In this document: positions 120 to 22,782 of the stretch, piece by piece
How the letters are laid out: every line of letters starts with the position of its first letter
Position numbering within the stretch: the stretch's first letter is position 1
Source of the DNA: a virus
Lineage: Duplodnaviria > Caudoviricetes
DNA length: 39,564 nucleotides
Strand: one strand, 5' to 3'
Virus record (IMG/VR): IMGVR_UViG_3300032212_000058
Location: 1 to 39,564 of that record
Made by a program: the position numbers and the translations under genes
Notes under the pieces: model-generated
Seen by the model: the letters and a program-made list of their open reading frames with translations, nothing else
The model's database searches: none
Told to the model about the DNA's origin: nothing

Positions 120-228
120 TGAGACCCACCGTGATAACTAGATAGATATTACTGAGATAAGTGGGATGAAAACAAATAAAACGGGATGTTGTGGGATGGT
201 CAGAATAAAAGAGAGTTGCAGAGGATAA
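120..228 (+). repeat. Left end (attL) with putative transposase-binding GATAA motifs
   Basis: TGAG-N9-GATAA (GATAA at 133-137), with further GATAA at 156-160 and 224-228. Mirrors the right end. Confidence 0.75.
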
Positions 229-246
229 AAGCCAAAAAAGCCAAAA

Positions 247-603
247 TTATGTCGGGTCGCTGGTGAACATGTCGGGCTGACGGCGAGCCAAGTCTGATGA
301 GCGAACCGCTTTGATTATCTGATAGGCCCACTGAATAGAGACATTATATTCTGCTGACAATTGTTCTAGGTGTTCAGTAGTCCCATTCCAGCGATTATAG
401 AATTCAAGGTCACGCTCGGTCAGGTCGATGCCCTGGCCTTTCGGGAAGTAGATCAGCTGACCACCCCAGTCTTTGCGCATCATATCAACCAGGGCGCGGG
501 CCAACCGAGCGGCCGCTTCACGATCAAGACCGACCTGCTCAACCGCCAGCGCAGTAGCCTTGTCAGTCAGATCGCGAAGAAGTTCAGGACTGCGGTTTTT
601 CAT
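247..603 (-). CDS. mor: Mor/C-family transcription activator
   Basis: WGGQLIYFPKG motif plus C-terminal HTH (LSAEYNVSIQWAYQII). ATG at 603 overlaps the gemA stop. Confidence 0.88.
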   Translation of the reverse strand: MKNRSPELLRDLTDKATALAVEQVGLDREAAARLARALVDMMRKDWGGQLIYFPKGQGIDLTERDLEFYNRWNGTTEHLEQLSAEYNVSIQWAYQIIKAVRSSDLARRQPDMFTSDPT

Positions 604-1055
604 CGCCAAACCACTCCGCAACGCTTAGCCCATTGCTTGAGAGACTCAACCACTTTGATCGCGACCGGCTTGGGCAGGAATTTCGGATCTTCCCAGCCAG
701 CTTGTTGAGGGTGGAAACGTCGAGTATTTGAGCGCAGCCAGGTGCGTAACGCAGTCGGATCAGACGACTTCACAACGCCAGCATCGACCATAGCAGTCCA
801 TATCCTTGGTATCAACGCAACCAGGTCTTCTGATGCCATCTGAGGCGATTTAGCCTTATTCTTTCTAGGTTTAGGCTTCCAGCCTTTTGAGATAAAATGA
901 GCCAACACACGGCCACGTCCTGCTGCTGACAGGTCTTTCGAACTCCCAGAGCCAACCTTTCCTACTTCACGGATCACCTGGCGATAGGTATCCTCGTCCA
1001 GACCAAGGTCTTTACATGCAATGTGGATTTTAGCGAGTTCTGTTTGCCGAGTCAT
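600..1055 (-). CDS. gemA: GemA / Mu gp16 (DUF1018) family protein
   Basis: LAKIHIA..LGLDEDTYR...G..SSKDL N-terminus and VVESLKQW C-terminus; adjacent to mor. Confidence 0.88.
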   Translation of the reverse strand: MTRQTELAKIHIACKDLGLDEDTYRQVIREVGKVGSGSSKDLSAAGRGRVLAHFISKGWKPKPRKNKAKSPQMASEDLVALIPRIWTAMVDAGVVKSSDPTALRTWLRSNTRRFHPQQAGWEDPKFLPKPVAIKVVESLKQWAKRCGVVWR

Positions 1056-2026
1056 AAAGCCCCCTCCACCAAACTCTCAAGTGGACTTTTCACGCTTGCA
1101 GCACCATTTGCAGCGACATGAGTATAAATTTGTGTAGTCGATATATTGGCATGACCAAGTAGTTTTTGGATTGTCCTGATATCAATGCCACTTTCTAATA
1201 GATGAGTGGCGAATGAATGACGGAGGATATGAGCGCCAACACGCTTAGTGATATTTGAAGTTCTGGCGGCTGTTTTGAGGGCTTTGCTGACTGCAGTTTC
1301 GTGAAGATGGTGTCGGCGCATAACTCCAGTGCGTGGGCACGCGCCAATAGTGGTTGACTGAAATAAAAACTGCCACCCTGGTTCTTTTGCGGCATTCGGA
1401 AATTTACGCTCAATTGCATTTGGTAGATATACCTCACCAAATCCATTATCAATGTCATGCTGATGTGTAGTCAGAGCAATATCGCGCTGCAACCGCATCT
1501 TACTCTCTAGTGATTCAGGCAACATCACTGCGCGATCTTTATCACCCTTTCCATGCCTAATAGTAATGATGTGTCGATCAAAATCGACATCCTGAATACG
1601 CAACGACAGAGCTTCGTTCAAACGCAGGCCTGAACCATATAATAGAGATGCTATTAGCTGTGTCATTCCAGACATTTTCTTCAAAAGTTCTGTGACTTCG
1701 TGCTGTGATAGAACTGTGGGCAACCGTTTTGGGGCAGTTGCAGGTCTGAATTGACCTATATCACCAACATCGATATTGAGTACTTGGCGATAAAAGAATA
1801 CCAAGGCATTCAAAGCCTGGTGCTGTGTAGACTTTGATACATGACGATCAACGGCTAGATGAGAAAGAAAGTCGCGCAACTTATCTGAATGACTTCCTTT
1901 GTCGTGACCCACACACCAACGACCATACCGACTAATCCAGTGCGTATAGGATTTTTCTGTCTTATATGACAGATGCCTGAATCGAGCAACATGCCTTGCT
2001 CGTAAAATCGCATCTTCGAGTCTCAT
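1052..2026 (-). CDS. intI: Integron integrase (tyrosine recombinase with IntI-specific insertion)
   Basis: N-terminal RFRHLSYKTEKSYTHWI and STQHQALNALVFFY. Catalytic motifs GSGLRLNE, GKGDKDR, HILRHSFATH, LLGH, TTQIYTH. Integron-specific patch GFGEVYLPNAIERKFPNAAKEPGWQFLF...RRHH. Confidence 0.95.
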   Translation of the reverse strand: MRLEDAILRARHVARFRHLSYKTEKSYTHWISRYGRWCVGHDKGSHSDKLRDFLSHLAVDRHVSKSTQHQALNALVFFYRQVLNIDVGDIGQFRPATAPKRLPTVLSQHEVTELLKKMSGMTQLIASLLYGSGLRLNEALSLRIQDVDFDRHIITIRHGKGDKDRAVMLPESLESKMRLQRDIALTTHQHDIDNGFGEVYLPNAIERKFPNAAKEPGWQFLFQSTTIGACPRTGVMRRHHLHETAVSKALKTAARTSNITKRVGAHILRHSFATHLLESGIDIRTIQKLLGHANISTTQIYTHVAANGAASVKSPLESLVEGAL

Positions 2027-2062
2027 CTATAGTAGCCTCGTTCCGATTAATATCTGTTAGGC
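2027..2062 (+). other. Putative compact attI site (crossover G|TT at 2056/2057, core GTTAGGC)
   Basis: A GTTRRRY core lies 30 bp from the intI start, at the canonical position, and is the exact complement of the GCCTAAC of the following attC. Also contains the intI RBS (GAGG on - strand). Confidence 0.65.
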
Positions 2063-2251
2063 ACCAATACGGACGCCCTGTTTTTTCAACTCTTCGATTT
2101 TCGCGTCACGCTCTTCCTTTGTATCAAAGAACAAAGGGCCGTTATTATCTCCGGCATTCATCCATTCACCTTCGAATTTAACTTTGATCCCGAAAACCTC
2201 TTTCATTTGTTTGGTATTAAACCAGGTTGATGGCTTTATGAATTTACTCAT
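2057..2251 (-). CDS. Cassette-encoded hypothetical protein (64 aa, MSKFIKPSTWF...)
   Basis: ATG at 2251 preceded by a GGAG RBS; the TAA stop lies within the core site. Confidence 0.75.
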   Translation of the reverse strand: MSKFIKPSTWFNTKQMKEVFGIKVKFEGEWMNAGDNNGPLFFDTKEERDAKIEELKKQGVRIGA

Positions 2252-2351
2252 AATCGTGGCTCCGTTCGTGCCTAACAAAATTTTTCAATCCGACTCATTC
2301 CGCGCCGGGCGTTCTTTTCCTGCACCTGAGTGGCGCGGCTTAAAAATGACG
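2057..2351 (+). mobile_element. Integron gene cassette (295 bp) with inverted ORF
   Basis: Bounded by G|TTAGGC and the attC G|TTAGCC. The circular form would have perfectly complementary GCCTAAC/GTTAGGC R boxes. Confidence 0.8.
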
Positions 2352-2357
2352 TTAGCC
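2270..2357 (+). other. attC recombination site (88 bp)
   Basis: R'' GCCTAAC (2270-2276) and R' GTTAGCC (2351-2357). L'' TTTTT[C]AATCCG pairs with L' CGGCTTAAAAA (one mismatch), with extrahelical C at 2286. TTCAAnCCGAC...GCGCGGCTTAA resembles classical attC arms. Confidence 0.85.
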
Positions 2358-2714
2358 ACAAAACTTCGGACCAAACCACTTCACAGAAATATACAAAGCA
2401 CTACGCTTCCATCGTGATACTCCCAGCACACCCATCGCTTCGTAGAATATTTTGTGGACTTCAACGCTTGATCTATCTTTGACCACACAAAGATAATCGT
2501 GCACCACCGCGGCTTTGCCGTATTTTCCCCACGGTGGTAACAACAACCAAAACGCTCTTGGGACGCTGGCAAAATCTGTTCTAAACCCAACAGGAACCGC
2601 GACCACATCATTGCTCGGATAGTCCCCGACGTGATAATGAAACGTTTGCATCAACCGCCATTCACGGCCATTGTTCAGTGGAGTAAGAATTAATTCGTCT
2701 GTGAATGTACTCAT
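2352..2714 (-). CDS. DUF1353-family phage protein
   Basis: VPVGFRTDFASVP...YGKAAVVHDYL...F.EAM..LGV motif. Confidence 0.8.
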   Translation of the reverse strand: MSTFTDELILTPLNNGREWRLMQTFHYHVGDYPSNDVVAVPVGFRTDFASVPRAFWLLLPPWGKYGKAAVVHDYLCVVKDRSSVEVHKIFYEAMGVLGVSRWKRSALYISVKWFGPKFCG

Positions 2715-2716
2715 AA

Positions 2717-2944
2717 TTACTTTCCATCTCTTTTATAAACTGTTATCAAGCACTTGTTTTTGACCACAGCAGTGAACCTGTTTTGGATGGTATAGACACC
2801 ATCGCCAAGTTCTTCTATCGCAGTGGAAATCCGTTCTGACAGCATTTCCTGTTTAATCATCTCAACGTCCAGGCCTCGACAACGTTCAAGGTAACGAACC
2901 AGCGCATGATCTGTGATTTTTAGAGATGTCTTAGTATCAGACAT
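2717..2944 (-). CDS. Hypothetical phage protein (ITDHALVRYLER motif)
   Basis: Tightly packed ORF in the early operon. Confidence 0.7.
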   Translation of the reverse strand: MSDTKTSLKITDHALVRYLERCRGLDVEMIKQEMLSERISTAIEELGDGVYTIQNRFTAVVKNKCLITVYKRDGK

Positions 2945-2972
2945 CAATCTTCACCCAGATCGGATCTGGTTC

Positions 2973-3668
2973 TCATGACAGTAGCTGCTCCAGTTTGTTA
3001 GTTGATTGCGACATATTGCCAGCCATAGACTTAACCAAAGCCACTTGGCGCTGGATCTGATCCTGAACTGATTTAGGCAGCAAGCGAGGGCCAAACTGCT
3101 GCTGTAGCGCAGCTATCTGGGCCGCATACTGTTCAGGATCATCCAGGATCTCCTGCAGCGATTTTGTCACTGCCGCCATCTTCGCTTCTGGGCTTAATAT
3201 CAAGTCTTCAACGGGCGTTTCTTTTACACGTTTAACACTGATATTTTTTCGAATCTCGCTATTGCCATCCTGTAGATCCAGCGCAAGCTGTTGCACTGCA
3301 TCCACCAGGCTGCATTTGCTTAGGCGAGCAGCTTTCTGGAGAGAGAAAAGCCCCCGAGAAACCAGTTCTTGATAAACTTCTTTTATTTCTGATTCATCAG
3401 CAATAATCCAATATCCACGGCTGCTACTGCTCATCACTGGAATGTCGTACACAGCGATCAAAACATTGATCAGGTCGCGCATCTTACGACTCAGCGTAGG
3501 AACGTCATCAATGATCTTTCCCTCACTATCACGGCGCAGCGCTTCACCAGACCATTGCTCATAGAGATCCCACATGTGAATGGCTTTGTGTTTACCTGGG
3601 TGCTTGCGTAAAATATCCAGCAAGCGCCTCAGATCCTTATTTAGTAATTCCTCATTATGTTTTTCCAT
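2973..3668 (-). CDS. Hypothetical protein, probable N-terminal winged HTH
   Basis: RKMRDLINVL...IPVMSSSSRGYWI resembles a wHTH wing; GGAG RBS upstream of MEKH. Confidence 0.65.
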   Translation of the reverse strand: MEKHNEELLNKDLRRLLDILRKHPGKHKAIHMWDLYEQWSGEALRRDSEGKIIDDVPTLSRKMRDLINVLIAVYDIPVMSSSSRGYWIIADESEIKEVYQELVSRGLFSLQKAARLSKCSLVDAVQQLALDLQDGNSEIRKNISVKRVKETPVEDLILSPEAKMAAVTKSLQEILDDPEQYAAQIAALQQQFGPRLLPKSVQDQIQRQVALVKSMAGNMSQSTNKLEQLLS

Positions 3669-4191
3669 TATCGCCTCCGGGTCTGAAACCAATTTCTTTC
3701 ATATGCCGATCAAATAACTCCTGACCGGATGGTTCATCTGGCGATGGCTTTGGCTGGGTCTTTTGTCCAGTCCGTAATTGTTGTTCTCGTTTCTGTTCGG
3801 CTTTTCCCTGATTTTTACTCGCGATTCCCGCGATGATCTCCAACAAATAACCATGCCCCTTCAATGGCAGAAGCAAGGTGCTTCGATTATTGTTGACCTG
3901 ATCCAGCGCCTCACGCCAATATTCGATTGGCGCTGGCCAGGTAACCCCTTTACGTGTGATCTCAGCAGTGCTGATCATCTCACTCAGCTCTTCCAGGATA
4001 GATGCCAGCTTATCCATGCTGATAGCTCGTTTACCTGGCGTAAACAGTCCCAAATAACCGATGATCCGATCGGCCAACGATGGCGCAATTTGGAGTGCTG
4101 ATAAAAGCGCCTGCCGCGCTCTGGCGTCATTCAACGCCAGAGGCAGCGGGAATTTGGCACCGCAATCAGGGCATACGCCAGGCAGGCTCAT
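3655..4191 (-). CDS. Conserved Mu-like phage early protein with N-terminal CxxC
   Basis: CPDCGA, YLGLFTP and LPLKGHGYLLEI motifs typical of transposable-phage early genes. Confidence 0.75.
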   Translation of the reverse strand: MSLPGVCPDCGAKFPLPLALNDARARQALLSALQIAPSLADRIIGYLGLFTPGKRAISMDKLASILEELSEMISTAEITRKGVTWPAPIEYWREALDQVNNNRSTLLLPLKGHGYLLEIIAGIASKNQGKAEQKREQQLRTGQKTQPKPSPDEPSGQELFDRHMKEIGFRPGGDNGKT

Positions 4192-4385
4192 TTAAAGACA
4201 ATCCGTTTGATTGTTGTTGACTCTTCATACCAGTGACGTGGCAAAACCCTTTCTGGCCGTTTATTGTTGGTGCCAGACGACATATCAAGGTCATCAGCAG
4301 TATTCTCAAGGGTGTGAGCCATTAGCTCGCCAACGGTCAGCAGGCGATTCAGGTGGTGTCGATCTATGTAAACCTTGTTAGCCAT
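4188..4385 (-). CDS. Hypothetical protein
   Basis: AAGGAG RBS; ATGA coupling to the next gene. Confidence 0.7.
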   Translation of the reverse strand: MANKVYIDRHHLNRLLTVGELMAHTLENTADDLDMSSGTNNKRPERVLPRHWYEESTTIKRIVFK

Positions 4386-4394
4386 AATGTCTCC

Positions 4395-4682
4395 TTATGA
4401 CGCCATCAAGGCGGCAGTATCAGCACCCCATTTAACATCGCAGCCTTCGAAATGGGTTGCCCTAACCTCGACACGCTTGCCACCAACACTGGATGAATAA
4501 TTCAAACCACTACCAATGCGATTGAGAGAATCATGTGGTTGCACAATAATGGTCGGCGATCGTCCACAAACAACAACCGCCAATACAGTCACACCCATCG
4601 CAGCTAAGCGTTCAGTTGCCTGATCTGCCGTGCGCATGCGATCCAAAACAATCTTGTTTTGAGTTGAATGATTTTGCATCAC
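4395..4682 (-). CDS. Hypothetical phage protein
   Basis: Overlaps the ATPase stop and ends ...FEGCDVKWG. Confidence 0.7.
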   Translation of the reverse strand: MMQNHSTQNKIVLDRMRTADQATERLAAMGVTVLAVVVCGRSPTIIVQPHDSLNRIGSGLNYSSSVGGKRVEVRATHFEGCDVKWGADTAALMAS

Positions 4683-5950
4683 ACACTCTCCAATATTTCT
4701 GCACTGACTTTAGGCGCACCGAACGATGCCGCCATGTTCATAGCCTTTGTCACCGTGATATTGACGACCAATGGATACAGCATGCTGATAGGTTGGCTGT
4801 GGCCACGTTTTTGCACCATCAAACGACGACGAATAGCATCAAAGGCATCCGGCTCAAAAATATCGTTCAGATGTTTGCTCATACGCTTAAGCTTTAATGT
4901 TAAATAGGCTTCCAGGTTGCCATTAAGAGGCTCAAGCTCAGCCACTTCGCAACGACGAATCACCTCACGCGCCTCCCAGTTCTGTCGCTCATCTAGTGAT
5001 GATTTTAATTCAGGCTGTCCAATAAGAATGATTGATAACAACTTGCGGAAGCCGTCCTCCAGCTCCCAAAAACGCTTTAGATATTTCAGCGTTTGCACAG
5101 ACAAATCATGCGCCTCTTCAATCATCAAAACATGAGCCGCCCCATCACGGGATGCATTGGTCAACAGGCGCAGAATCTGACGAGACTTGGCCTCCTGTGA
5201 GCGCTTGGGGGACTCTTTTGATATGTCACAAATGATTGCATCGCATATCGCGCCCGCCGTCAGTCGTCCCTTGTCGATGATTTGTGGTTGGATGATGACA
5301 ATGTCGGCATTTTCTTTTTGTACGCGATCGATCAGGTCACGACGCAACGTGGTCTTGCCCGCGCCTGACTCACCAATCACCGCCAGAAAGCCACCATGCT
5401 TGGCAGTCTGATACATGGCTTCTCTAATGTAACGTTGATCAGAATCCAAAAACACATCGTCAGCATTTTGAACGTCATCAGTGAATGGGTCACGAAACAA
5501 ACCAAAGTGTTTTTTGGCGGCAGGTGTTAGCATTTCAGTCTCCGGTATAGTAGTTTCTCGTACAGGTTCAGGGGTGGATGGATTGGTATGACCGGCGCGT
5601 TCGTAATTTTTCATTACTCCGTCTTCCAGCTCATTCCATAGATTGCTTAATTCAAATTTTGTAAGGCCTCTTTTTTTTAAAAACGCCTCAGTTTGTTTTT
5701 TGATTGTCGCTGGCTTGGTGCTGCGTGGCCACGTACCGTAATTCAACAACAGAGAGGCGGCAGGTTCACTCAGGCCGTTGCCCTTTCCGCGGCCTCCTTC
5801 TTGAACAATGGCTGATGCCCATTCGGATTGGGTAATGCTGTTATCTACAAGCACCATCTTGAGACGGATAGGCATATAACGGGCTTCCTTATTTTTATTG
5901 ATGGCAATTTGTGGCACTCTTTTTTCTGACATGATCATGGCGGTGGACAT
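4679..5950 (-). CDS. Transposition AAA+ ATPase (MuB-equivalent, ExeA-like)
   Basis: Walker A GESGAGKT and Walker B VLMIEEAH, LIGQPEL motif; directly downstream of the transposase. Confidence 0.92.
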   Translation of the reverse strand: MSTAMIMSEKRVPQIAINKNKEARYMPIRLKMVLVDNSITQSEWASAIVQEGGRGKGNGLSEPAASLLLNYGTWPRSTKPATIKKQTEAFLKKRGLTKFELSNLWNELEDGVMKNYERAGHTNPSTPEPVRETTIPETEMLTPAAKKHFGLFRDPFTDDVQNADDVFLDSDQRYIREAMYQTAKHGGFLAVIGESGAGKTTLRRDLIDRVQKENADIVIIQPQIIDKGRLTAGAICDAIICDISKESPKRSQEAKSRQILRLLTNASRDGAAHVLMIEEAHDLSVQTLKYLKRFWELEDGFRKLLSIILIGQPELKSSLDERQNWEAREVIRRCEVAELEPLNGNLEAYLTLKLKRMSKHLNDIFEPDAFDAIRRRLMVQKRGHSQPISMLYPLVVNITVTKAMNMAASFGAPKVSAEILESV

Positions 5951-5963
5951 AAATTTTCTCCTG

Positions 5964-7733
5964 TTATTTCACTACGCTTAATCCAATAGATTTAGATCCT
6001 ATGGTTGTGGGTTGAGGGCTGGTGATCTGCATCACCAACGTGTTGAACGCTTCATTGGGCACACCGTCTGGGTACAACTTCTGAACCAGGGCGTAATAAT
6101 TAATTCCTTCGGGGGGGTGGCCTAATTCAACCACCAGTCGCTTGCATGCCTCAGTGATAGTCATAGGTTTCACTTCAACAGCGGCATGATCCGGCACATC
6201 CATTTCGGTGCCTTTGCGTTGCATATAAACAGTGCTGGTTTCATCTTTCATGTAGCTGATAGGGTCCACTTCACCATTGAAGGCTGGGCGTTTTTCATTG
6301 CGCGCTTTATCAACTTCCAATTGCGTCTCAGCACCATAGGCATCCTTCGCCATCTGCTTGCGGTTTTGGTCGGCATCGGTGTCGGGTGTAGTCTTATAAC
6401 TTTCACCGTACACCGGCGCATCTAACAGAAATCCCGCCACGTCTCGGCCCAGTGGCTCGCATTCGTAGTGGCGCTCGGTGCCATCCGCGTCATGCATAAC
6501 TACATAGATGCTCGGCGCTTTATAGGGATTGACACAGACATCCACGTATTCACCGACGCGAATATCGGGCACATGGGCCACGCTGTATTGCGCTGGGTCA
6601 AAACCTTTAACCGTGAATTGCACCACCAGGCTGCCACGCACCTGGCGCGACTCAGGCCGCGTGCGCAATAGCAGCTCGCATAATTCCCTTGGTGGACAGA
6701 TGCGCAGCTGATCCGCACGCACCGATTGCCACAGGCCATAACGGGTATGGCCGTGGCGTGAATGGTTGAACGTGCCGTTGAAATGGCGCATCCATATATG
6801 CGCCTGCTCGTTGAGCTGTTCGACAGACTGAATGTTCATCATGAACAGCCGTCCCTCGAATTTGCACTCCACAATATTGTGGCCGTTTTCCACCTGGCCC
6901 TTGCCGCGCGGATTGCCGGGCGTATGGGCAATGTGCTTGCAATCCAGGCGGTCAAGCAGATTTTTTATTAATGCAGACTGGTTGGCGCTGCCCGCATCCC
7001 AAACCATGATGAACGGCACCCCGTGCAATGGGTCTTGCTCATGGCTGCGCTGATGGAAGGCATCCATCAAAAAACTAAACAGAATCTCCTGCGTTTCACC
7101 CGAGCCCATGTAGTAATGCACATAGAGCGCACCGGTATAGTGATCAGTGATCAGATAGCGCAACACTCGCTGCTTGCTGATCTTGGCAACGTTCTCAGGC
7201 TTGTTCTTATAAAACCGCTTCTCATCCATCACCCCCAGGCCGCCTTTATCTAAATAGAATAGAACGCACACCGACACATCGAACTGCCAGACGTGATTGG
7301 GGTGCAGGCTGCGCATCTCCGTGTGAGGTGATGGTTTAGTAATCTGGTCGGGATGTAACCCACGCTGACGCATAATGCGCAGTGCGGTGCTGGGCGAAAC
7401 AGTAGTACTGATCATGTTATTGGCCCGGGCAATTTGCATTGCATCATCCACGCCCAACAGACGCTTGCCGTTCTGCCGGTACGATTCAACCATCAATGTT
7501 GCGATGGTCCTGGCATCCTTATCACTCAAACGGCTGTCGCCTTTGTCGGCGCGAATCTTTTTACCGGAGCAATACCCGGCATTGAGTAACTGCCGGTAAA
7601 CACCCTGCCTGGTCGTACTCAAAAACGTGGCTGCGCCATCGATCAACACGCCTTTTTCGCCATGCCCGGCCGCCTCCAGCCGGGCGACCAGATCGCGCAG
7701 GTAATCGAGCGTTCCTATTTCGGCAGCATGCAT
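5964..7733 (-). CDS. DDE transposase (MuA-equivalent, integrase-core type)
   Basis: HPNHVWQFDVS, VWDAGSAN and PRGKGQVE give the D-D-E triad; paired with the ATPase. Confidence 0.92.
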   Translation of the reverse strand: MHAAEIGTLDYLRDLVARLEAAGHGEKGVLIDGAATFLSTTRQGVYRQLLNAGYCSGKKIRADKGDSRLSDKDARTIATLMVESYRQNGKRLLGVDDAMQIARANNMISTTVSPSTALRIMRQRGLHPDQITKPSPHTEMRSLHPNHVWQFDVSVCVLFYLDKGGLGVMDEKRFYKNKPENVAKISKQRVLRYLITDHYTGALYVHYYMGSGETQEILFSFLMDAFHQRSHEQDPLHGVPFIMVWDAGSANQSALIKNLLDRLDCKHIAHTPGNPRGKGQVENGHNIVECKFEGRLFMMNIQSVEQLNEQAHIWMRHFNGTFNHSRHGHTRYGLWQSVRADQLRICPPRELCELLLRTRPESRQVRGSLVVQFTVKGFDPAQYSVAHVPDIRVGEYVDVCVNPYKAPSIYVVMHDADGTERHYECEPLGRDVAGFLLDAPVYGESYKTTPDTDADQNRKQMAKDAYGAETQLEVDKARNEKRPAFNGEVDPISYMKDETSTVYMQRKGTEMDVPDHAAVEVKPMTITEACKRLVVELGHPPEGINYYALVQKLYPDGVPNEAFNTLVMQITSPQPTTIGSKSIGLSVVK

Positions 7734-7750
7734 GACAGGTCCATTCCTAT

Positions 7751-8683
7751 TTAGGCTTCTTCCCAATCCAATTCGTCCAGGCTGGTGCCTGTCGAGCTAG
7801 CAGCGGCCTCACGTGCCTCTTCCATCCAGGCATCGTCCTCGGGTTCATGGGCAACATCGCTCAGCGCATACTTGGCACGCAGATCATCCAGCGCCGTCAG
7901 CACTCGGTTGACCGACTGATTGCAGGCGTTTTTCAGATGAGTCGGGGCGTCTTGCCAGGTGAGGGTTTCGTGAATCACCACTTCCAACGCAAGCAGCTCG
8001 CCGATGCTATGCAGGGTTTTGCGCTCCAACCGTTGCGACAGATCACCGATGCGATCATCCAGCGGGGCGTTGTCGAGTTTGTGCAGGGCTTTATCTAGCT
8101 CGTTGATTTTATTGTCTTTATTTGCTAGTAACGCCTCGTGAGTCTCGCGTTCCTGACTCGCGTCATCACGGGCTGTGCGCAGGGCCTTCCGCAGTTCGTC
8201 GCGTGTCATGCGGTCGATTTCGTCCAGCGTAAGCCCAGCCAAGGTGCCTCCATTGGCCAGAGCTTCGAGATCATCATCCTCTTCGATCATGAGTTCGAGT
8301 AGTTTCGATTTGTCCAAATGCGACGCCAGCGTCGCATTTGACCCAGAAAACTTTACTGCCGCTTGCATCATTCGCTGAGCTGCTCTGGGATGAATGCCAA
8401 TCTGTTCTAATGCATGCGTGAACTCGCCATGCTGTTCGTGCTCCTTTAATACAATCAGCCGCTTACCTGCCTCCAACATAGCGTCGGCCGACTGCTGTAA
8501 ATAAAAGCGTGCCTCATTGATGAGGCGTTGCGGGTCATACGGCAGCCCATCACCATAGGTGGCGTCAATGGTGGCCAGGTGCTGGTGGTGTGCATCGGCG
8601 ACCTGGACATCTGCGGCGATAGTCTCGCCGTCGATGGTGGCGGTGGTGTCTTCTGCCGGTTTTTGTGTTGCTTTGCGAGCCAT
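7751..8683 (-). CDS. DUF3102-like phage protein
   Basis: EAGKRLIVLKEHEQHGEF...AQRMMQAA; upstream of the transposase as in B3-like phages. Confidence 0.75.
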   Translation of the reverse strand: MARKATQKPAEDTTATIDGETIAADVQVADAHHQHLATIDATYGDGLPYDPQRLINEARFYLQQSADAMLEAGKRLIVLKEHEQHGEFTHALEQIGIHPRAAQRMMQAAVKFSGSNATLASHLDKSKLLELMIEEDDDLEALANGGTLAGLTLDEIDRMTRDELRKALRTARDDASQERETHEALLANKDNKINELDKALHKLDNAPLDDRIGDLSQRLERKTLHSIGELLALEVVIHETLTWQDAPTHLKNACNQSVNRVLTALDDLRAKYALSDVAHEPEDDAWMEEAREAAASSTGTSLDELDWEEA

Positions 8684-8698
8684 GTGATTGATTCCTTA

Positions 8699-9007
8699 TT
8701 AATAGGGTGTGCGGTTGTAACGTTGGGTAACTTCGTCGACCTTGGCCTGGGCACGTTGCACGCCACTAAGCATGGCAACGCCGATTTGTGGCACCTTGGG
8801 CGACAGTCGCCAGCGGCCGCTGTCCTGTATCTGCTCAGCCAGCCCGGCCTCTTTCAGGTTGGCCAGATCGCGGGTGATGTTGCTGGGCATGGTGTTCAGC
8901 GCCTTGGCAATCTCACCCGGGGCCAGGCCGTTGACCTCATGCCCGGCCAGGCGCAGCAACACCTGCAAAACACGTTGCTGCGCACCATTGGTGTAACGTT
9001 CAGCCAT
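8699..9007 (-). CDS. IclR-type HTH DNA-binding protein
   Basis: GLAPGEIAKAL...ITRDLANLKEAGLAE...WRL; AGGAG RBS before ATG 9007. Confidence 0.8.
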   Translation of the reverse strand: MAERYTNGAQQRVLQVLLRLAGHEVNGLAPGEIAKALNTMPSNITRDLANLKEAGLAEQIQDSGRWRLSPKVPQIGVAMLSGVQRAQAKVDEVTQRYNRTPY

Positions 9008-9236
9008 TGATAAATGTCTCCTGATAGCGGTTGTCGAAATAGCCGTCCAACGGCAGTTCGTCATCGATTTGATCCAAACAAGGCAAGAGCCTGTCGGCCT
9101 CGGCCCAGCCCATTGCCCACCAGGCCGCTTCATCGCTGTTGACGGGATTGGGGTTGTCCAATAGCGTCTTGCCGTCCAGCCGCGCGTCGTAACCTTTCAG
9201 GTTTTGTTCGACATATGTTTCTTCTGTGGCGCTCAT
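9000..9236 (-). CDS. Small protein with Rmf-like motif
   Basis: GYDARLDG...NP...WWAMGWAEA. Confidence 0.6.
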   Translation of the reverse strand: MSATEETYVEQNLKGYDARLDGKTLLDNPNPVNSDEAAWWAMGWAEADRLLPCLDQIDDELPLDGYFDNRYQETFING

Positions 9237-9484
9237 GACTGAGTGCCTTTATTGGCATTAACAAAATCGGCCTCATGCTGAGCGCAGATATTCAGCAGAT
9301 CGCCCACGGTCATCCATTCCAGCGGCGTGCCAGTGTCGATGAGGCGGCACGCCAGACTGCGCTGGTATTGATAATTTCCTTTGGCGAAATCGCCAATTTT
9401 TTGCATAGCTTCTAATGTCGAAACGATGTTGTTGAGCGTGATAACAGGCACATCAAGCGGAATGCTGCTGGCGGTGGTGCTCAT
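9233..9484 (-). CDS. Hypothetical protein
   Basis: ATGA-coupled on both sides; AAGGAG RBS. Confidence 0.7.
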   Translation of the reverse strand: MSTTASSIPLDVPVITLNNIVSTLEAMQKIGDFAKGNYQYQRSLACRLIDTGTPLEWMTVGDLLNICAQHEADFVNANKGTQS

Positions 9485-9963
9485 AATTGATCTCCTTCTA
9501 GGTCTAGCTCAGGTTGGTTGGTTTTCTCCACGGTGCCGCGATGCCAGGCCAGAGACTCCATCACCCCAGTGATGGCAGCGATCGTCTCTTCCGCACTGGT
9601 GCGGCCTTCGTGAAACTTGATTAGGCTGGTGCTGGTTTCGTTCATCGCCAGCGACAGCTGAGTGATTTCCTGGTGAGTGGCCTTGCGGCCGGTGGGTACA
9701 TCTATCAGCAGTTTGTGACGGCGGTGAGCTTCATAATGAGTGATGAGGTCGATGCCGCAGGCGTTCTCAAAGGGATAGATAAGAATCCCTGGAATTCGCC
9801 CGGATTCAATCCACTTATAGATCATCCACTTGCTTTCGAGCCCCATCAGGTCGGCAATGTTGTCGATAGAGCGATTCAGGCGCTCTTTTGCATGACCTAC
9901 GCATAGCTCCATTGCGTGCCGGTAACTGATGGGGTGGACCTTCTTCCAACTTCTAGACGGCAT
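9481..9963 (-). CDS. Phage regulatory protein (HTH, CII-like)
   Basis: IADLMG...IYKWIESGRIP...FENACG; GGAGG RBS before ATG 9963. Confidence 0.7.
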   Translation of the reverse strand: MPSRSWKKVHPISYRHAMELCVGHAKERLNRSIDNIADLMGLESKWMIYKWIESGRIPGILIYPFENACGIDLITHYEAHRRHKLLIDVPTGRKATHQEITQLSLAMNETSTSLIKFHEGRTSAEETIAAITGVMESLAWHRGTVEKTNQPELDLEGDQL

Positions 9964-10085
9964 TGGAACGCCCCTCCGACTGCAAGCTGGTGACATTCCA
10001 AACAAAGCCGGATTTTGCTATTGTGCAAAGGTGTTGCAGAAACCTAAGCTGGAAGTACGTTAACAACCGCCAAAGGAGCCCTGTC

Positions 10086-10331
10086 ATGGCAATTGATCCG
10101 CACGATAAAGACCATAATGATCTCTGGTTGCAGCTAGCGCAGTTGCGCATTACGGTGACGACACAGGAGGCCATGATCAACATTCTCAGCGTGTTTCTGA
10201 TTGATCAGGGGCTTGATAAGCAACGTCTGATTGAATCGATTGAGACAATCGCGGGCAACGCTGACAGAGAGGGCAAGCCCCCTGTTGCCGAGCTAATGAG
10301 GGAATGGGTGACGTGTCTTGAAACTCTTTGA
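10086..10331 (+). CDS. Hypothetical protein antisense to the early operon
   Basis: AAAGGAG RBS before ATG 10086; 81 aa, helical-looking. Confidence 0.55.
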   Translation: MAIDPHDKDHNDLWLQLAQLRITVTTQEAMINILSVFLIDQGLDKQRLIESIETIAGNADREGKPPVAELMREWVTCLETL

Positions 10332-10464
10332 GGGCTCGATAGATATCGGCTCTATCAACCGTCATTTGGCCACTAATATGCTTATAGGCTTTCTGCGCCG
10401 TCCAGTTGTTACGAGAGGCTAGCTCATAAAATAGATTCGTTACTGATTGGTTATTGTTGTTCAT
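10186..10464 (-). CDS. Hypothetical protein
   Basis: AAGGAG RBS right after the ner stop; its 3' half overlaps the opposite-strand ORF. Confidence 0.5.
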   Translation of the reverse strand: MNNNNQSVTNLFYELASRNNWTAQKAYKHISGQMTVDRADIYRALKEFQDTSPIPSLARQQGACPLCQRCPRLSQSIQSDVAYQAPDQSETR

Positions 10465-10476
10465 GCGGCGGTCTCC

Positions 10477-10692
10477 TTAGGCGGCGGTTTTTGACTGGCG
10501 GTACCATTTTGGCCAGATCCGCTCAAGCGGCAGGCCGGTAACCTGAGAGATATAACGCTCGATCCGTTTGGAACGACCGTTACCAAAAATGACGAGGTGC
10601 ACAGCAGTACTGGAGACATTGAAACGTTTAGCGATCGCCGTTTGCGAGACGGACTTTTTGGCTAATGTAGCTTTTATGTCTATTGGGTCCAT
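10477..10692 (-). CDS. ner: Ner/Nlp-like (Cro-equivalent) regulator
   Basis: DIKATLAKK..SQTAIA...IS..TG...ERIWPKWY; first early gene, divergent from the repressor. Confidence 0.8.
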   Translation of the reverse strand: MDPIDIKATLAKKSVSQTAIAKRFNVSSTAVHLVIFGNGRSKRIERYISQVTGLPLERIWPKWYRQSKTAA

Positions 10693-10791
10693 GATTGGCC
10701 TTTTTTTAGGTTTGCTGTGCTTAAAAAACAAAATTGAATTGTTAATTTAAAATTGATTGTGGTGCATGAATATGCACCTGTCAAGGATTCT
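10693..10791. promoter_or_regulatory. Divergent immunity switch region with operator-like inverted repeat GGTGCAT-gaat-ATGCACC (10761-10778)
   Basis: AT-rich spacer between ner and the repressor, containing a 7-bp-arm palindrome. Confidence 0.65.
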
Positions 10792-11196
10792 ATGGAAAAA
10801 AGTGCGCAGATAAACACCTTTGGTCCTAGGCTTCGGGAGGAGCGCGATCGTTTGCGTCTAAATCAGACTGACTTTGGAGCTGCCGGCGGTATTAAAAAAC
10901 GAGCCCAAATCAATTATGAAAAAGGTGAGGGAGCGCCTACTCCAGACTATTGGGTAGGGATCACCAAAATAGGTGCTGATATCCAATACATTTTGACGGG
11001 GGTCAGATCGTGCAATCTAAATCATGTCGCTGAAGAGGCGGCTGGATATCAATCCCGCGGGGGTGGGAGCGTATCGCAGGAAGAGAAAGGTATCATTCAG
11101 ATGTACCGGGAACTCAGGCCTGCGGACCGCACCCATGCAAGGGCGGTTATTGATGCGCTTGCATGCAAAAACTTGAAAAAGGATGAGACGGGTTAG
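10792..11196 (+). CDS. XRE-family phage repressor (cI-like)
   Basis: RLREERDRLRLNQTDFG...AQINYEKG...GADIQYILTG. Confidence 0.88.
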   Translation: MEKSAQINTFGPRLREERDRLRLNQTDFGAAGGIKKRAQINYEKGEGAPTPDYWVGITKIGADIQYILTGVRSCNLNHVAEEAAGYQSRGGGSVSQEEKGIIQMYRELRPADRTHARAVIDALACKNLKKDETG

Positions 11197-11289
11197 CCTG
11201 TACCAAATGCGCCAGCGCTGGCACATTAGGATGAGCTTAAAGCGGCCAACGTTGGCCGTTATGGATCAACAAATAATAACGGGGGTTAA

Positions 11290-11625
11290 ATGAAAAAGAT
11301 CGCAATGTTGTTGCTAGCGTCTATGTTGACGGGCTGCGTAATGTTAAACGGCGTACCAACCTACGTCCCAATTCATGACGACTTCATTACATTGGTGGAG
11401 GCTGATGTTGATATCGGTGGGCAAACACTTTTTAAAGGGCAAAAGCTAGACCATTACAATATTGACGGTGCGGATGCATATTGTTCACGACTAGTGTCGT
11501 CAAATCTAAATTTATATCGTTGCTTTTTAGTCGATGGAGATCAGCTTACGACCGGCTTGCATCCCATGACGAGTGAGTGGCGACCGTTGTCACGTAATGT
11601 TCCGATCATAAAGCAGACAAACTAA
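11290..11625 (+). CDS. Lipoprotein (moron)
   Basis: Signal peptide with lipobox MKKIAMLLLASMLTG-C. Confidence 0.8.
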   Translation: MKKIAMLLLASMLTGCVMLNGVPTYVPIHDDFITLVEADVDIGGQTLFKGQKLDHYNIDGADAYCSRLVSSNLNLYRCFLVDGDQLTTGLHPMTSEWRPLSRNVPIIKQTN

Positions 11626-11642
11626 CCACAATTTCCGCCAAC

Positions 11643-11792
11643 ATGAGAATCGAGAATACATTTGTAGCATCAATTCTTTGTGGTTTCCGTGGCCATCACT
11701 GGCGCTTTGTCCGTATCAGTATTGAAGGGGATAAGGTTTTTAAATGTCGTCGGTGTGGACAAGATAAAGTGGCACCATTTTTCCAGCATTAA
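11643..11792 (+). CDS. 49-aa putative zinc-binding peptide (DUF1660-like)
   Basis: Hand-translated: MRIENTFVASILCGFRGHHWRFVRISIEGDKVFKCRRCGQDKVAPFFQH. C-x4-H plus CxxC; weak RBS. Confidence 0.5.
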   Translation: MRIENTFVASILCGFRGHHWRFVRISIEGDKVFKCRRCGQDKVAPFFQH

Positions 11793-11840
11793 TTATATTG
11801 TAATTTTTTTCATTGAGGTATCCGTTATTTAGGGGGTTGT

Positions 11841-12791
11841 GTGGGCACTACTATTAAGAGAACTATAAATCTAAAAGCTGTTTATTTTAATTCCGGTAAG
11901 AGAAAAAATTTTAAGGCTCCAATAATCCAAGATGTATTGGAAAAATTCTGGACAAATTCATCGTCTGTCGCAGATACACTCCAACCTAGAGGTGGTGACG
12001 ATAACGTACGGCGGTGCTTTATTAATAAAGGGAAATCGTATGAGCAAGGATTTGGTTTTCAGTTTTGCTCATATTTGCCTGGTGAGTTTCCACCGTCATC
12101 AAGCTTGGATTTAAGTAAAAAAGCTGTGGATGTTGATGCTATTCCAATAGTGGATGAAGAAGGAAATCATCGGCAGATAATAAGCGTTGTGCATGTACTT
12201 GCTTTTGGTCACGCTTTAATTGTTGAAAGTGTCAAAGGTAGTGGAGGTATAGATGTATTGGAGCGATATCTTACCCGCATTGTCAAGCAGATATTAGATA
12301 CCCCAAATCATCCGGCTGTTCATTTGGTTGACCCTGCTCCTAAAGGGCTTCACCAATTAATTTCTCACGGAGGGGGTGTTGTGGGTGTTGATCTATTGCT
12401 GGCAGAGTCTAATGTCATAAAAGGCAGTAAGTATGCAAGCTCTTTGACTACTCTAAGAGATCAATTACCTGGAACAGATAAACTTTTTGTAAAATGGCAA
12501 AGCAGTACAATTTTAAATGTACAAGAGGTAGAGCAAGCATTTTCCGAAGCAGAACAGAATGATGCTCTTGATCGGGTCTCTGTATATTTAAGAAATGGTG
12601 ATACGGTTAGTTTGTCCAAGCATAGGATTAGGGCTCGTCCTGACGTTCAATCTGTCAATGGAAAAAACCCAGCCAGCAACGAGCTAATGAAAGAAATGCG
12701 GAATTTTATTATTGAATTGAAGTCACCCGATGAGGACGATGGCTTAACAATTTTGACGGAAGACGGTAGGCTAGCGAATGTCAATATATAG
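11841..12791 (+). CDS. Hypothetical soluble protein, AT-rich moron (candidate defence component)
   Basis: 316-aa ORF in an AT-rich segment, paired with a membrane protein. Confidence 0.8.
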   Translation: MGTTIKRTINLKAVYFNSGKRKNFKAPIIQDVLEKFWTNSSSVADTLQPRGGDDNVRRCFINKGKSYEQGFGFQFCSYLPGEFPPSSSLDLSKKAVDVDAIPIVDEEGNHRQIISVVHVLAFGHALIVESVKGSGGIDVLERYLTRIVKQILDTPNHPAVHLVDPAPKGLHQLISHGGGVVGVDLLLAESNVIKGSKYASSLTTLRDQLPGTDKLFVKWQSSTILNVQEVEQAFSEAEQNDALDRVSVYLRNGDTVSLSKHRIRARPDVQSVNGKNPASNELMKEMRNFIIELKSPDEDDGLTILTEDGRLANVNI

Positions 12792-12807
12792 GCCCATTAT
12801 TTAATTT

Positions 12808-13407
12808 ATGGCTATCAGAGATTATTTCCCGGATGAGTGGCTAGCCGCATTTGAAGCCTCTTCTAATCTTAAGAAAACGGCCAAAAAAACACCTCATGCA
12901 GTTTTTAAGCTGTTTATTGGGGTGTTGTTTCCTTTTCTTGGAGGATCAATAGCCGCTTTCTTTTTACAACTAAGAGTGAGTGAGAATTTTGTTGTTGGTG
13001 CGATTACAACGATAGGAATATTGCTTGGATTTTCTATGAGTTTAATGCTTTTCACTGGTAGAGGTTCAGGGGCTGAGTCATTGAACTATGATGAAGCAAA
13101 AGTTTATAGGGATAAAATAATATATTTATTATGGTCTCAAAGCCTAACCTTGATTAGTTATACAATGACACTTGCGCTTGGAATTATTTTGCTTTTGATT
13201 GGGGTTGATAAAGTTAGCCTCGCGGAAACAATAGCCCTATCAATGTTTATTGGTGCTTTAATCTTGTGTTTCGTTCGAACGGCAATGCTTCCATATCAAT
13301 TGATCGACATGCATACATTTAATCTTAAAATGCTTGTTGAAACTAAACAAAAACAACTAAAAAAAGAACTTGAGAAGCAAAAACGGGATCTGTCCCTTGA
13401 CGATTAG
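12808..13407 (+). CDS. Four-TM membrane protein, AT-rich moron
   Basis: Four hydrophobic stretches and a charged C-terminal tail. Confidence 0.8.
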   Translation: MAIRDYFPDEWLAAFEASSNLKKTAKKTPHAVFKLFIGVLFPFLGGSIAAFFLQLRVSENFVVGAITTIGILLGFSMSLMLFTGRGSGAESLNYDEAKVYRDKIIYLLWSQSLTLISYTMTLALGIILLLIGVDKVSLAETIALSMFIGALILCFVRTAMLPYQLIDMHTFNLKMLVETKQKQLKKELEKQKRDLSLDD

Positions 13408-13409
13408 CT

Positions 13410-13455
13410 TTTTTAAATCACTTTAATATTATTTGGCCTCTCTGCCCCCTAGTCT
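13410..13455 (+). promoter_or_regulatory. Putative activator-dependent late promoter 1 (lysis/packaging)
   Basis: TTTTTAAATCACTTTAA, then 23 nt, then -10-like TAGTCT; same architecture as 24614. Confidence 0.7.
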
Positions 13456-13462
13456 GGAGGGC

Positions 13463-13849
13463 ATGACTTCAACACTTCAGCTCAGTACTCATTTCCGGCG
13501 ACATGAATTTGCATGCCCTTGTGGTTGTGGTTTCAACACCATCGACGCCGAACTACTTTATGTTCTGGAATCTATTCGGGATCATTTCCAAACCCCTGTA
13601 ATCATCAACAGTGGTGCGCGGTGCATGCGGCATAATGTAAGCGTTGGCGGTGCGGCGCTTTCAAAACATACGCTTGGCCAGGCAGCAGACATTAGAGTCG
13701 GTGGCGCTGAACCCGACAAGGTGTTCGCGTGGCTGGATAAAACCTTCCCTGACTGTTACGGCATTGGCCGTTATGACACCTGGACGCATATTGATGTGCG
13801 CCCAAACAGATCACGTTGGGATAAACGAGAGGTGCGTCATGAGCTTTGA
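13463..13849 (+). CDS. Endolysin, peptidase M15 family
   Basis: EFACPCGCG, INSGARC..HN..VGGA..SKH..GQAADI, THIDVR; GGAGG RBS. Confidence 0.9.
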   Translation: MTSTLQLSTHFRRHEFACPCGCGFNTIDAELLYVLESIRDHFQTPVIINSGARCMRHNVSVGGAALSKHTLGQAADIRVGGAEPDKVFAWLDKTFPDCYGIGRYDTWTHIDVRPNRSRWDKREVRHEL

Positions 13850-14369
13850 CTGGAAAAAACTGGTACGTAAAGTGGCGCCCACGATCGGTGCGGCACTCGG
13901 CACTCCTGCCTCTGGTATGGCGATCAAGTTTCTTGCAGATAAATTCCTGGGCAATCCAGATGCAACTGAGATTGAGTTGGCTGGCGCCATTCAAAACTCA
14001 ACACCCGAACAGATACTGGCACTGAAACAGCTGGATCAGGACTTTGCCATCAAGATGAAAGAGTTGGATATCGATGTCTTCCGGCTTGAAACCGCCGATC
14101 GCCAGAATGCTCGCGAATTATTCAAGGTCAACATCTGGCCACAGGTCATTCTCTCAGGCCTGTTCGTGGTGGGTTATTTCTCCATTATGGGGTTGCTGGT
14201 GTGGATGCATGACACTCATTTTGATGATCGTGTGTTCGGCATTCTCAACACAGTCATCGGTGTGCTTACCGCTGCTATCCCAATGATTCTGCAATTTTGG
14301 TTTGGCTCCAGCACGGGATCAAAAGAGAAAGACCAGATAAAGGCACAGGAGTCTGCAAAGCGTGATTGA
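13839..14369 (+). CDS. Putative holin / lysis membrane protein
   Basis: VAPTIGAALG..., DRQNAR, two TM helices, FWFGSS motif; follows the endolysin. Confidence 0.7.
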   Translation: MSFDWKKLVRKVAPTIGAALGTPASGMAIKFLADKFLGNPDATEIELAGAIQNSTPEQILALKQLDQDFAIKMKELDIDVFRLETADRQNARELFKVNIWPQVILSGLFVVGYFSIMGLLVWMHDTHFDDRVFGILNTVIGVLTAAIPMILQFWFGSSTGSKEKDQIKAQESAKRD

Positions 14370-14718
14370 TGGAATTGATTGGAAGGTTGTGTCTGCGCTG
14401 GTCGGTGTTGTCATGGCCTGGAGTGTGGTGCTGTTTTGGGCGGTGAAGTGGTTGCTGGACGGGCATACAACGCACCTTGATGAAAAGTTTACCGCGCTGC
14501 AAAACGCAGCCAACAAAGAAGCCGAGCAGCTGCAACGGGTTGAAAAAGACTTGCTCAAGATGCAAGCAGAGCTACCTGAAAAATACGTGCGGCGTGAAGA
14601 CTGGATTCGATTCTCAGCAGTAATTGATGCCAAGCAGGACACCCTGAGCGAAAAGATTAGCCGTGTAGACATGACATTACAGCGTGTCGATGAGCGAATG
14701 AGACTGGAGAGTAAATAA
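14362..14718 (+). CDS. Membrane-anchored coiled-coil protein (Mu gp25-like position)
   Basis: N-terminal TM helix and LPEKYVRRED motif. Confidence 0.7.
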   Translation: MIDGIDWKVVSALVGVVMAWSVVLFWAVKWLLDGHTTHLDEKFTALQNAANKEAEQLQRVEKDLLKMQAELPEKYVRREDWIRFSAVIDAKQDTLSEKISRVDMTLQRVDERMRLESK

Positions 14719-15026: not shown

Positions 15027-15028
15027 AT

Positions 15029-17461: not shown

Positions 17462-17483
17462 ACAATTAAAGGGGTGTTATTAC

Positions 17484-19792: not shown

Positions 19793-19801
19793 GAGGTTGT
19801 T

Positions 19802-20530: not shown

Positions 20531-20540
20531 GGAGATCACC

Positions 20541-20858: not shown

Positions 20859-20864
20859 GCGCAG

Positions 20865-21170: not shown

Positions 21171-21279
21171 ATAACGCCCGTAGAGACGCTGTAAGCGTCG
21201 CAGCGCCCTGGGTCGCCGTCATCGGTCGTATCCAGGGTGAAGCTAGGTTTATAAAGACTTTATAAAGCGAGATAGAGCA

Positions 21280-22776: not shown

Positions 22777-22782
22777 CAGCCG

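What the first reader, a model, noticed from the sequence alone, without database searches (positions are those of the whole stretch)
2027..2357. Cassette ORF is inverted so the phage early transcript replaces Pc
Seen: the extrahelical C (2286) orients attC on the + strand, divergent from intI as in canonical integrons. The cassette ORF, however, is on the - strand with its own GGAG RBS, co-directional with intI and the whole early operon. Only 29 bp separate the intI start from the crossover G, leaving no room for a dedicated Pint, and no CTG-N10-CAG LexA box is visible there. Inference: cassette and integrase are expressed together on prophage induction rather than by Pc and SOS control, which would select for antisense-oriented cassettes.
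Basis: partly seen in the sequence, partly recalled or inferred. Interest (0 to 1): 0.85.

Follow-up and report, generated by a model that had tools for sequence, protein, structure and literature searches.

The report
Phage integron with backward gene cassette
This transposable prophage carries its own integron (a gene-capture system best known from bacteria) whose captured gene faces the opposite way to the bacterial textbook layout, as in most related phage integrons, so the phage's own early transcript likely reads both the captured gene and the integrase.

Summary
Observation confirmed. A B3/Mu-like prophage carries an integron integrase (TIGR02249, 387 bits), a 29-bp attI and one attC. 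The attC top strand is + (profile 23.9 vs 3.2 bits). The 64-aa cassette gene (133 relatives) lies on the - strand, in line with intI, gemA, mor and the early operon. This is a family trait: 27 of 33 viral intI loci have mostly inverted cassettes, against 0 of 15 comparison loci. Near-identical phage pairs differ by whole cassettes inserted at the attI triplet, which confirms polarity and activity in relatives. A homologue of this cassette, gene plus attC, sits inverted in another phage. Inverted integrons have short attI-intI gaps (median 45 vs 145 nt) and no upstream LexA box (0 of 28 vs 4 of 12), in at least two IntI lineages. Read-through from the phage operon is the best explanation but is inferred; no RNA data exist. 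In some relatives the operon is late, not early. An unconserved LexA-like palindrome lies inside intI. My library searches found no paper on this; this scan noted it before in at least seven other genomes.

The parts
1052..2026 (-). intI, integron integrase, 324 aa; its stop overlaps the gemA start (ATGA)
   Evidence: TIGR02249 387 bits, cutoff 265; best PDB match 2A3V E 4e-74 including the integron-specific insertion, Foldseek TM 0.81; R135 K160 H266 R269 H292 Y301 present
2027..2058 (+). attI left half and crossover G|TT (G 2056); only 29 bp to the intI start, holding intI's GAGG ribosome site
   Evidence: motif AAC-AGA(T/G)ATT(A/C/G)A before intI in 10 viral loci of the clade; same 29-bp spacing in L002; relatives gain cassettes at this triplet
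2057..2351 (+). the single cassette (295 bp), top strand +
   Evidence: GTTAGGC at 2056-2062 is 7/7 complementary to R''; homologous gene+attC unit in L285
2057..2251 (-). cassette gene, 64 aa, antisense to its attC; small beta-sheet plus helix protein of no named family; GGAG at 2260-2263
   Evidence: 133 relatives; AlphaFold2 pLDDT 89.5; no Pfam, PHROG or NCBIfam hit; only weak fold matches
2270..2357 (+). attC: R'' 2270-2276, extrahelical C 2286 (G on the bottom strand), R' 2351-2357
   Evidence: detector and polarity profile, folding
2352..2714 (-). DUF1353 gene; its stop codon is the complement of the TTA in the distal R' (the right half of the empty attI); no attC beyond it
   Evidence: PF07087; 0 of 8 viral relatives near an attC
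247..1055 (-). gemA (600-1055) and mor-family activator (247-621), the genes downstream of intI
   Evidence: PF06252, PF08765
2717..10692 (-). early operon upstream: semi-essential-region ORFs, MuB-like ATPase 4679-5950, transposase 5964-7766, Ner-like gene 10477-10692
   Evidence: gaps between the ORFs from 247 to 9133 are -38 to 30 nt, except the 100-nt gap that holds the attC
10756..10784 (-). candidate early promoter (TTGACA-17-CACAAT, 10 of 12), divergent from a repressor-like HTH gene at 10792-11196
   Evidence: consensus scan (13 sites found vs 13.7 expected by chance, so its position, not its score, carries the weight); HTH_3 E 0.0015, below cutoff
1957..1972 (.). LexA-like palindrome CTGT-N8-ACAG inside intI codons 19-24; likely chance
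   Evidence: absent at this place in 68 of 68 viral relatives
120..39437 (.). the prophage, TG...CA ends, flanked by a 6-bp duplication TGATGC (114-119, 39438-39443)
   Evidence: an empty-site contig joins 119 to the right flank

Best explanation
This is a complete integron at the end of a B3/Mu-like prophage's early operon, with its cassette gene antisense to attC, and the phage early transcript likely reads the cassette gene, intI, gemA and mor in one run, in place of the bacterial Pc and Pint promoters. Shown: the parts, the attC polarity, the inversion, the 29-bp attI-intI gap, and that relatives insert cassettes at attI in the normal attC orientation. Inferred: recombination chemistry is unchanged (bottom strand of attC, crossover at G|TT), and only the strand that carries the gene has flipped. 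Transcription arrives from the far end of the array, so only genes antisense to attC would be expressed. Cassettes with a terminator or a sense-strand gene would likely be selected against, because intI, gemA and mor lie downstream. Integrase would then be made when the repressor is lifted and the phage replicates, which is also when single-stranded attC forms, so SOS control by LexA would be unnecessary. Every cassette would be expressed, with no silent reserve, which fits the short arrays. The cargo is a phage gene pool: small unknown proteins and DNA-modification genes that likely counter host defences.
For: Polarity profile 23.9 vs 3.2 bits. Cassette strand calls: viral 47 inverted, 8 canonical, 11 unclear of 66; comparison loci 4, 23, 16 of 43 (Fisher p 6e-10, rows not independent). 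By locus: 27 of 33 viral vs 0 of 15 inverted. 21 of 71 inverted-frame ORFs hit PHROGs vs 0 of 88 opposite-strand ORFs. L059 is L054 plus a 523-bp attC+ORF unit at the attI triplet, flanks 100% identical; L019 carries a 339-bp unit at attI that L018 lacks. Crossover-to-intI distance 28-81 nt in 18 inverted loci vs 98-246 nt in 8 canonical loci, placed by eye. Upstream LexA box in 0 of 28 inverted vs 4 of 12 canonical loci. One phage has a second attI copy on the opposite strand, without adjacent intI, again with attC antisense to the local genes (L271). The homologous cassette sits inverted in an array of a complete phage with no IntI match (L285). At least two IntI lineages (3 changes, p-AU 0.027). 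In the window, gaps are tight, intI overlaps gemA, and no + strand consensus promoter points at the cassette.
Against: No transcript data. The candidate early promoter is about 8.5 kb away, and three weak terminator-like sites lie on the - strand in between (19 found vs 12.4 expected). Weak promoter-like sites inside the cassette point at intI (8 of 12 at 2278; an extended -10 near 2221). LexA-like palindromes at 1957-1972 and 2966-2981. In L046, and probably L032, the operon is late or middle. The contigs of the source run show no joint at the cassette. The LexA test covers only the beta/gamma-proteobacterial motif, and most hosts are unknown. The strand caller was right on only 25 of 29 annotated genes.
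Confidence: 0.7

Rival explanations
1. Same inverted anatomy, but the cassette and intI are read from a local internal promoter (in the cassette, in DUF1353 or near 2950-2980), possibly active in the lysogen or under LexA, not from the distant early promoter.
For: CTGG-N8-ACAG at 2966-2981, at a 25-nt gap three genes upstream of the cassette; CTGT-N8-ACAG at 1957-1972; weak - strand promoter-like sites in the cassette. From memory, not confirmed by my search: Mu's gemA-mor pair was reported to have its own promoter active in lysogens. Vibrio cassettes can carry antisense promoters (10.1101/2023.11.21.568050, passages).
Against: No site passes the standard scan on - between 1666 and 10784. The intragenic box is unconserved. 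Nine CTG-N10-CAG in the window vs 11.5 expected. Cassettes turn over in relatives while the constant part has no room for a promoter.
Confidence: 0.2
2. The integron here is a fixed relic. The cassette is now an ordinary operon gene, and its orientation only reflects the co-orientation of all phage genes with their operon, without ongoing cassette traffic.
For: One cassette only; a 6-nt R''-side spacer; the hairpin is no more stable than shuffles; no excision joint in the source run's contigs.
Against: All six catalytic residues intact; 7/7 R''/R' match; the 6-nt spacer is kept in the homologous cassette of another phage; natural cassette gains in relatives.
Confidence: 0.08
3. The attC has the opposite polarity, or a normal cassette was inserted backwards by top-strand recombination, so the gene is in fact sense to its attC.
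For: On the - strand the layout mimics a normal cassette: core heptamer, ribosome site, ATG, stop inside TAAC. Top-strand insertion occurs at low frequency (PMC5027507, passages).
Against: Profile 23.9 vs 3.2 bits. A backward insertion would flip the L boxes with the gene and put the extrahelical base next to DUF1353, but it is at 2286. Natural insertions break at the predicted triplets. The attC lay opposite to intI in all 66 viral sites, and the trained profile agreed with that strand in 65 of 66.
Confidence: 0.02

Closest known systems
Canonical integrons (class 1; V. cholerae chromosomal integron, VchIntIA, PDB 2A3V)
   Same: IntI family, fold and catalytic residues; attI at the 5' end of intI; attC divergent from intI with extrahelical bases; insertion at G|TT.
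   Different: Cassette gene antisense to attC and co-directional with intI; no room for Pint; no LexA box upstream; no Pc seen; platform embedded in a phage operon with genes downstream of intI. In class 1, Pc lies in intI1 facing PintI1 and LexA controls intI1 (PMC8876359, passages).
Phage-borne integrons and CALINs of Qi et al. 2023 (PMC9892861; parts 1-3 of 7 and passages read)
   Same: Integron parts in phage genomes; DNA methyltransferase cargo.
   Different: Their 3 complete integrons and 1 In0 were Vibrio-type, class 1 or Shewanella-type, close to host integrons. In the text I read, no systematic inversion of ORFs against attC is described. The Vibrio example I re-read (L243) is mostly canonical. 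Their supplements were not read.
Inverted-integrase integrons of Treponema (Cury et al. 2016, PMC4889954, passages)
   Same: intI co-directional with cassette genes (gene direction from my own knowledge).
   Different: [quoted passage not shown] Here intI-attI-attC geometry is normal and the genes are flipped inside the cassettes.
Occasional inverted or own-promoter cassettes in Vibrio superintegrons
   Same: Single ORFs or promoters antisense to attC occur (2 + strand non-transposase ORFs in the L243 array annotation; antisense promoters).
   Different: There they are exceptions; in these phages inversion is the rule.

Membership tests
Complete integron | Integron integrase with the IntI-specific insertion and catalytic residues | tested here: met
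   TIGR02249 387 > 265; aligns to 2A3V over residues 7-318; RKHRHY present
Complete integron | attC with R''/L''/L'/R' boxes and extrahelical bases | tested here: met
   R''-side spacer is 6 nt, within the five to six given in PMC5027507
Complete integron | attI next to the 5' end of intI, used as insertion point | tested here: met
   conserved motif in the clade; insertion at the equivalent triplet shown in relatives of another phage IntI clade, not in this phage
Complete integron | IntI-catalysed recombination of these sites | not testable with these tools
   needs an attC x attI assay; no joint in the source contigs
Canonical (Pc-driven, SOS-controlled) integron | Cassette ORF on the attC top strand | tested here: not met
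   ORF on -, attC top strand +
Canonical (Pc-driven, SOS-controlled) integron | Pint with LexA box between attI and intI | tested here: not met
   29 bp only, no CTG-N10-CAG there; other LexA motifs not tested
Canonical (Pc-driven, SOS-controlled) integron | Pc in intI or attI pointing into the array | tested here: inconclusive
   none at 9 of 12; only weak sites at 1614-1616 and 1770; consensus scans are weak evidence
Inverted-integrase (Treponema-type) integron | intI in the same orientation as attC | tested here: not met
   intI on -, attC on +
B3/Mu-like transposable phage | TnpA, TnpB, GemA, Mor; two divergent arms; TG...CA ends with target duplication | tested here: met
   layout as described in PMC8705779 (passages)

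The most novel reading that the evidence does not exclude
Temperate phages have, at least twice, turned the integron into their own gene-capture device with a mirror-image cassette pool made from phage genes. Cassettes are cut exactly from ribosome site to stop codon on the attC bottom strand and traded between phages, including phages without IntI. The recombinogenic bottom strand is the non-template strand of the phage transcript, so transcription itself could expose attC and time shuffling to the lytic cycle. The mirror symmetry (stop codon TAA inside the core site in both worlds) would point to integrase-driven cassette genesis at TAAC stop codons, a long-open question.
Probability: 0.35. 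Interest if true: 0.9.

Novelty: new variant of a known kind. Interest (0 to 1): 0.74.

Why it matters
Integrons are seen as bacterial devices whose attC asymmetry exists to place genes sense to Pc. Here the same asymmetry is kept while the genes are written on the other strand, across many phages and more than one integrase lineage. Phages would thus run their own cassette pool (DNA-modification and small unknown genes), a counterpart to the anti-phage cassettes of bacterial integrons. Such cassettes would be silent or antisense if captured by a bacterial integron, and bacterial cassettes would be silent in the phage, which would keep the two pools apart. A second, mirror-image pool gives a natural control for how cassettes are made. 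The compact attI-RBS-intI module can be tested directly in standard E. coli assays.

Tried and rejected
Rfam holds no attC model that matched. Single-protein scans of viral contigs with IntI and the cassette ORF gave 1 and 0 loci; the word-indexed protein search found only the ORF itself, whereas the exhaustive search found 133 relatives. No match of the cassette protein in GenBank phages, in PHROGs for its family (at most 1 of 62 members per family), or in the other 284 loci held. Fold searches gave only weak matches (best BFVD E 0.006; best Z 6.6), so no function is assigned. No RNA holder listed; the one DNA run may be the source and its contigs show no cassette joint. A stop-position statistic alone was confounded by shadow ORFs in GC-rich loci and was replaced by a codon model with a PHROG control. 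The idea that DUF1353 is a former cassette found no support: no attC or complementary heptamer beyond it, 0 of 8 relatives near attC; left open. A conserved intragenic LexA box was rejected. An alignment of 40 attC sites was made but no covariance model was built; the profile test was used instead. My detector requires AA/TT in the L boxes and misses variant sites (L263, and the homologous site in L285), so counts are lower bounds. In one search I gave 71 of the 77 cassette ORFs. The distance test used 18 of 28 inverted and 8 of 12 canonical loci; L043 (about 88-124 nt) was among those left out. No complex prediction was run, as no binding is claimed.

Full report
Setting. The window is one contig holding a B3/Mu-like transposable prophage from 120 to 39437. 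It has TG...CA ends and a 6-bp duplication TGATGC, and a contig of the source run joins the two flanks as an empty site, at depth 103.7 against 13.9 for the prophage. The left arm is on the - strand: a Ner-like gene (10477-10692), transposase, MuB-like ATPase, small ORFs, DUF1353, the cassette gene, intI, gemA and a mor-family activator. A repressor-like gene starts at 10792 on +, and a sigma-70-like site (10 of 12) at 10784-10756 points into the left arm. The closest named IntI relatives come from gammaproteobacterial symbionts (endosymbiont of Escarpia spicata 75%, Ca. Thiodiazotropha 73%). The host is not identified.

The observation. intI (1052-2026) passes TIGR02249 (387 bits, cutoff 265), aligns to VchIntIA 2A3V (E 4e-74; TM 0.81) and keeps all six catalytic residues. 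[quoted passage not shown] A profile trained on 40 attC sites from metagenome, genome and annotated loci, oriented by their sense ORFs and correct in 40 of 40 leave-locus-out tests, gives 23.9 bits on + and 3.2 on -. The - strand is the more stable fold, though not more than shuffles. The cassette runs 2057-2351, and its first heptamer is 7/7 complementary to R''. Its gene (2057-2251, -, 64 aa) has a GGAG 8 nt before the ATG, 133 relatives and a confident small fold (pLDDT 89.5), but no known function. 29 bp separate the crossover from the intI start, and no CTG-N10-CAG lies there.

It is a family trait. An alignment of 56 IntI relatives found 351 stretches in viral contigs, of which 80 were kept, plus 80 metagenome and 80 genome loci as comparison (each a sample of one part in 64). 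In all groups the attC sites upstream of intI are divergent from it. Strand calls by a codon model (25 of 29 right on annotated genes) gave, for viral loci, 47 inverted, 8 canonical and 11 unclear of 66 cassette intervals. For the comparison loci, which include one annotated Vibrio phage record with a captured host array, they gave 4, 23 and 16 of 43. By locus, 27 of 33 viral loci are mostly inverted, 2 canonical and 4 unclear; the 15 comparison loci are 0, 10 and 5. As a control, 21 of 71 inverted-frame ORFs hit PHROGs (three Mom-like DNA modification proteins, a methyltransferase, two PAPS-reductase-like proteins, the rest unknown), against 0 of 88 opposite-strand ORFs. 53 of 61 flanking proteins hit PHROGs, among them terminases, portals, tails, an endolysin and many phage-type integrases. 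On an IntI tree the inverted loci need 3 changes, and one clade is rejected at p-AU 0.027 (40 rows, quick LG+G4 tree, the duplicate L059 left out). The window falls in a 13-row all-viral clade. Convergence is therefore likely but rests on a modest test.

Polarity and activity from natural variants. L054 and L059 are 100% identical on both sides, and L059 has an extra 523-bp unit, attC body distal and ORFs in the intI direction, joined exactly at the attI triplet. L019 has a 339-bp unit at attI that L018 lacks, and L022 and L023 diverge from the same triplet. These breakpoints are what normal bottom-strand insertion gives, and they exclude reversed polarity. The only viral locus I could fetch for the cassette protein's family (L285, 57% identical) is an inverted cassette in an array with 8 attC-like hits at a loose threshold. 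Its attC aligns with the window's, including the 6-nt spacer, in a complete phage with no IntI match. So gene and attC travel together between phages. One phage holds a second copy of its attI about 9 kb away on the other strand, with two attC sites and no adjacent intI, again antisense to the local genes (L271).

Regulatory interval. The attI motif before intI is conserved in the window's clade, with the same 29-bp spacing in L002. Crossover-to-start distances, placed by eye, were 28-81 nt (median 45) in 18 inverted loci and 98-246 nt (median 145) in 8 canonical ones. A gamma/beta-type LexA box lay upstream in 0 of 28 inverted and 4 of 12 canonical loci; hosts with other LexA motifs are not covered.

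How it most likely works. Recombination is standard; the gene strand is flipped because transcription arrives from the far end of the array. In this phage the ORFs from 247 to 9133 are packed with gaps of -38 to 30 nt apart from the attC gap, intI overlaps gemA, and gemA overlaps mor. Read-through across the cassette would supply intI and the Mor-family activator, and would select against sense-strand genes and terminators. Integrase would appear on derepression, when replication provides single-stranded attC. All of this paragraph is inference. Against it: there are no RNA data, the promoter is about 8.5 kb away with weak terminator-like sites between, weak promoter-like sites lie in the cassette, and I recall, unconfirmed, that Mu's gemA-mor pair has its own promoter. 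'Early' is specific to this and similar loci: in L046 the integron lies between terminase and portal, and in L032 just before terminase. The DUF1353 stop codon forms the distal core. Whether it is a former cassette that lost its attC, or the site where the platform landed, is open.

Known systems and novelty. It is a member of the integron family by IntI, attI and attC, but fails the canonical features of sense cassettes and a Pint/LexA interval. It is not the Treponema type, where intI has the orientation of attC (PMC4889954, passages). Phage integrons are published (PMC9892861; parts 1-3 of 7 and passages read; supplements not read), but as host-like integrons and CALINs, with no systematic inversion in the text I saw. 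Seven searches of the library (listings only) showed no paper on it; subscription papers are not covered. This scan's own notes report the same layout in at least seven other genomes. I looked at them after seeing the pattern, and they are not independent evidence. Verdict: real, a new variant of a known kind, interest 0.74; mechanism 0.7.

Noticed in passing
window 114-119 and 39438-39443: 6-bp target duplication TGATGC with TG...CA ends; the empty host site is about seven times deeper than the prophage in the source run, so only part of the host population carries this insertion.
   Followed up: yes
L271 (same contig as L008/L259): Second near-identical attI on the opposite strand about 9 kb from intI, with two attC sites and no adjacent integrase: one IntI may serve two arrays.
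   Followed up: partly
L263 and L275, around 3504 of the oriented loci: attI motif without intI behind it; L263 has an attC-like hairpin with L boxes lacking the usual AA/TT, which my detector missed.
   Followed up: partly
L046:19-8882: Integron between terminase large subunit and portal genes, with an inverted DNA methyltransferase cassette, so in a late operon.
   Followed up: partly
L013, L023, L075, L037, L046, L032, L009: Mom-like DNA modification, PAPS-reductase-like and methyltransferase genes recur as cassette or array-edge cargo, suggesting counter-defence use.
   Followed up: partly
L285:898-4252: Long inverted array in a complete 38.7-kb phage with no IntI match; two attC sites (1775-1862, 3232-3319) are nearly identical.
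   Followed up: partly
window 13596-13611: Second strict CTGT-N8-ACAG in the late arm, just before ORF 13644-14369.
   Followed up: no
window 3257-3614 and 5478-5923: The source run holds a related phage, about 85% alike in these stretches.
   Followed up: no
window 9000-9236 (-): ORF with a weak ribosome modulation factor hit (PF04957, E 0.0013, below cutoff) in the early operon.
   Followed up: no
L244 (Virus Rctr41k, KX853513) 4680-5678: GenBank phage with an IntI-like gene annotated xerD inside a co-directional operon; no attC detected near it.
   Followed up: no
many viral loci, e.g. L003, L004, L008, L021, L034, L037: intI lies just upstream of the phage's own integrase gene, at the end of the leftward early operon.
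   Followed up: partly
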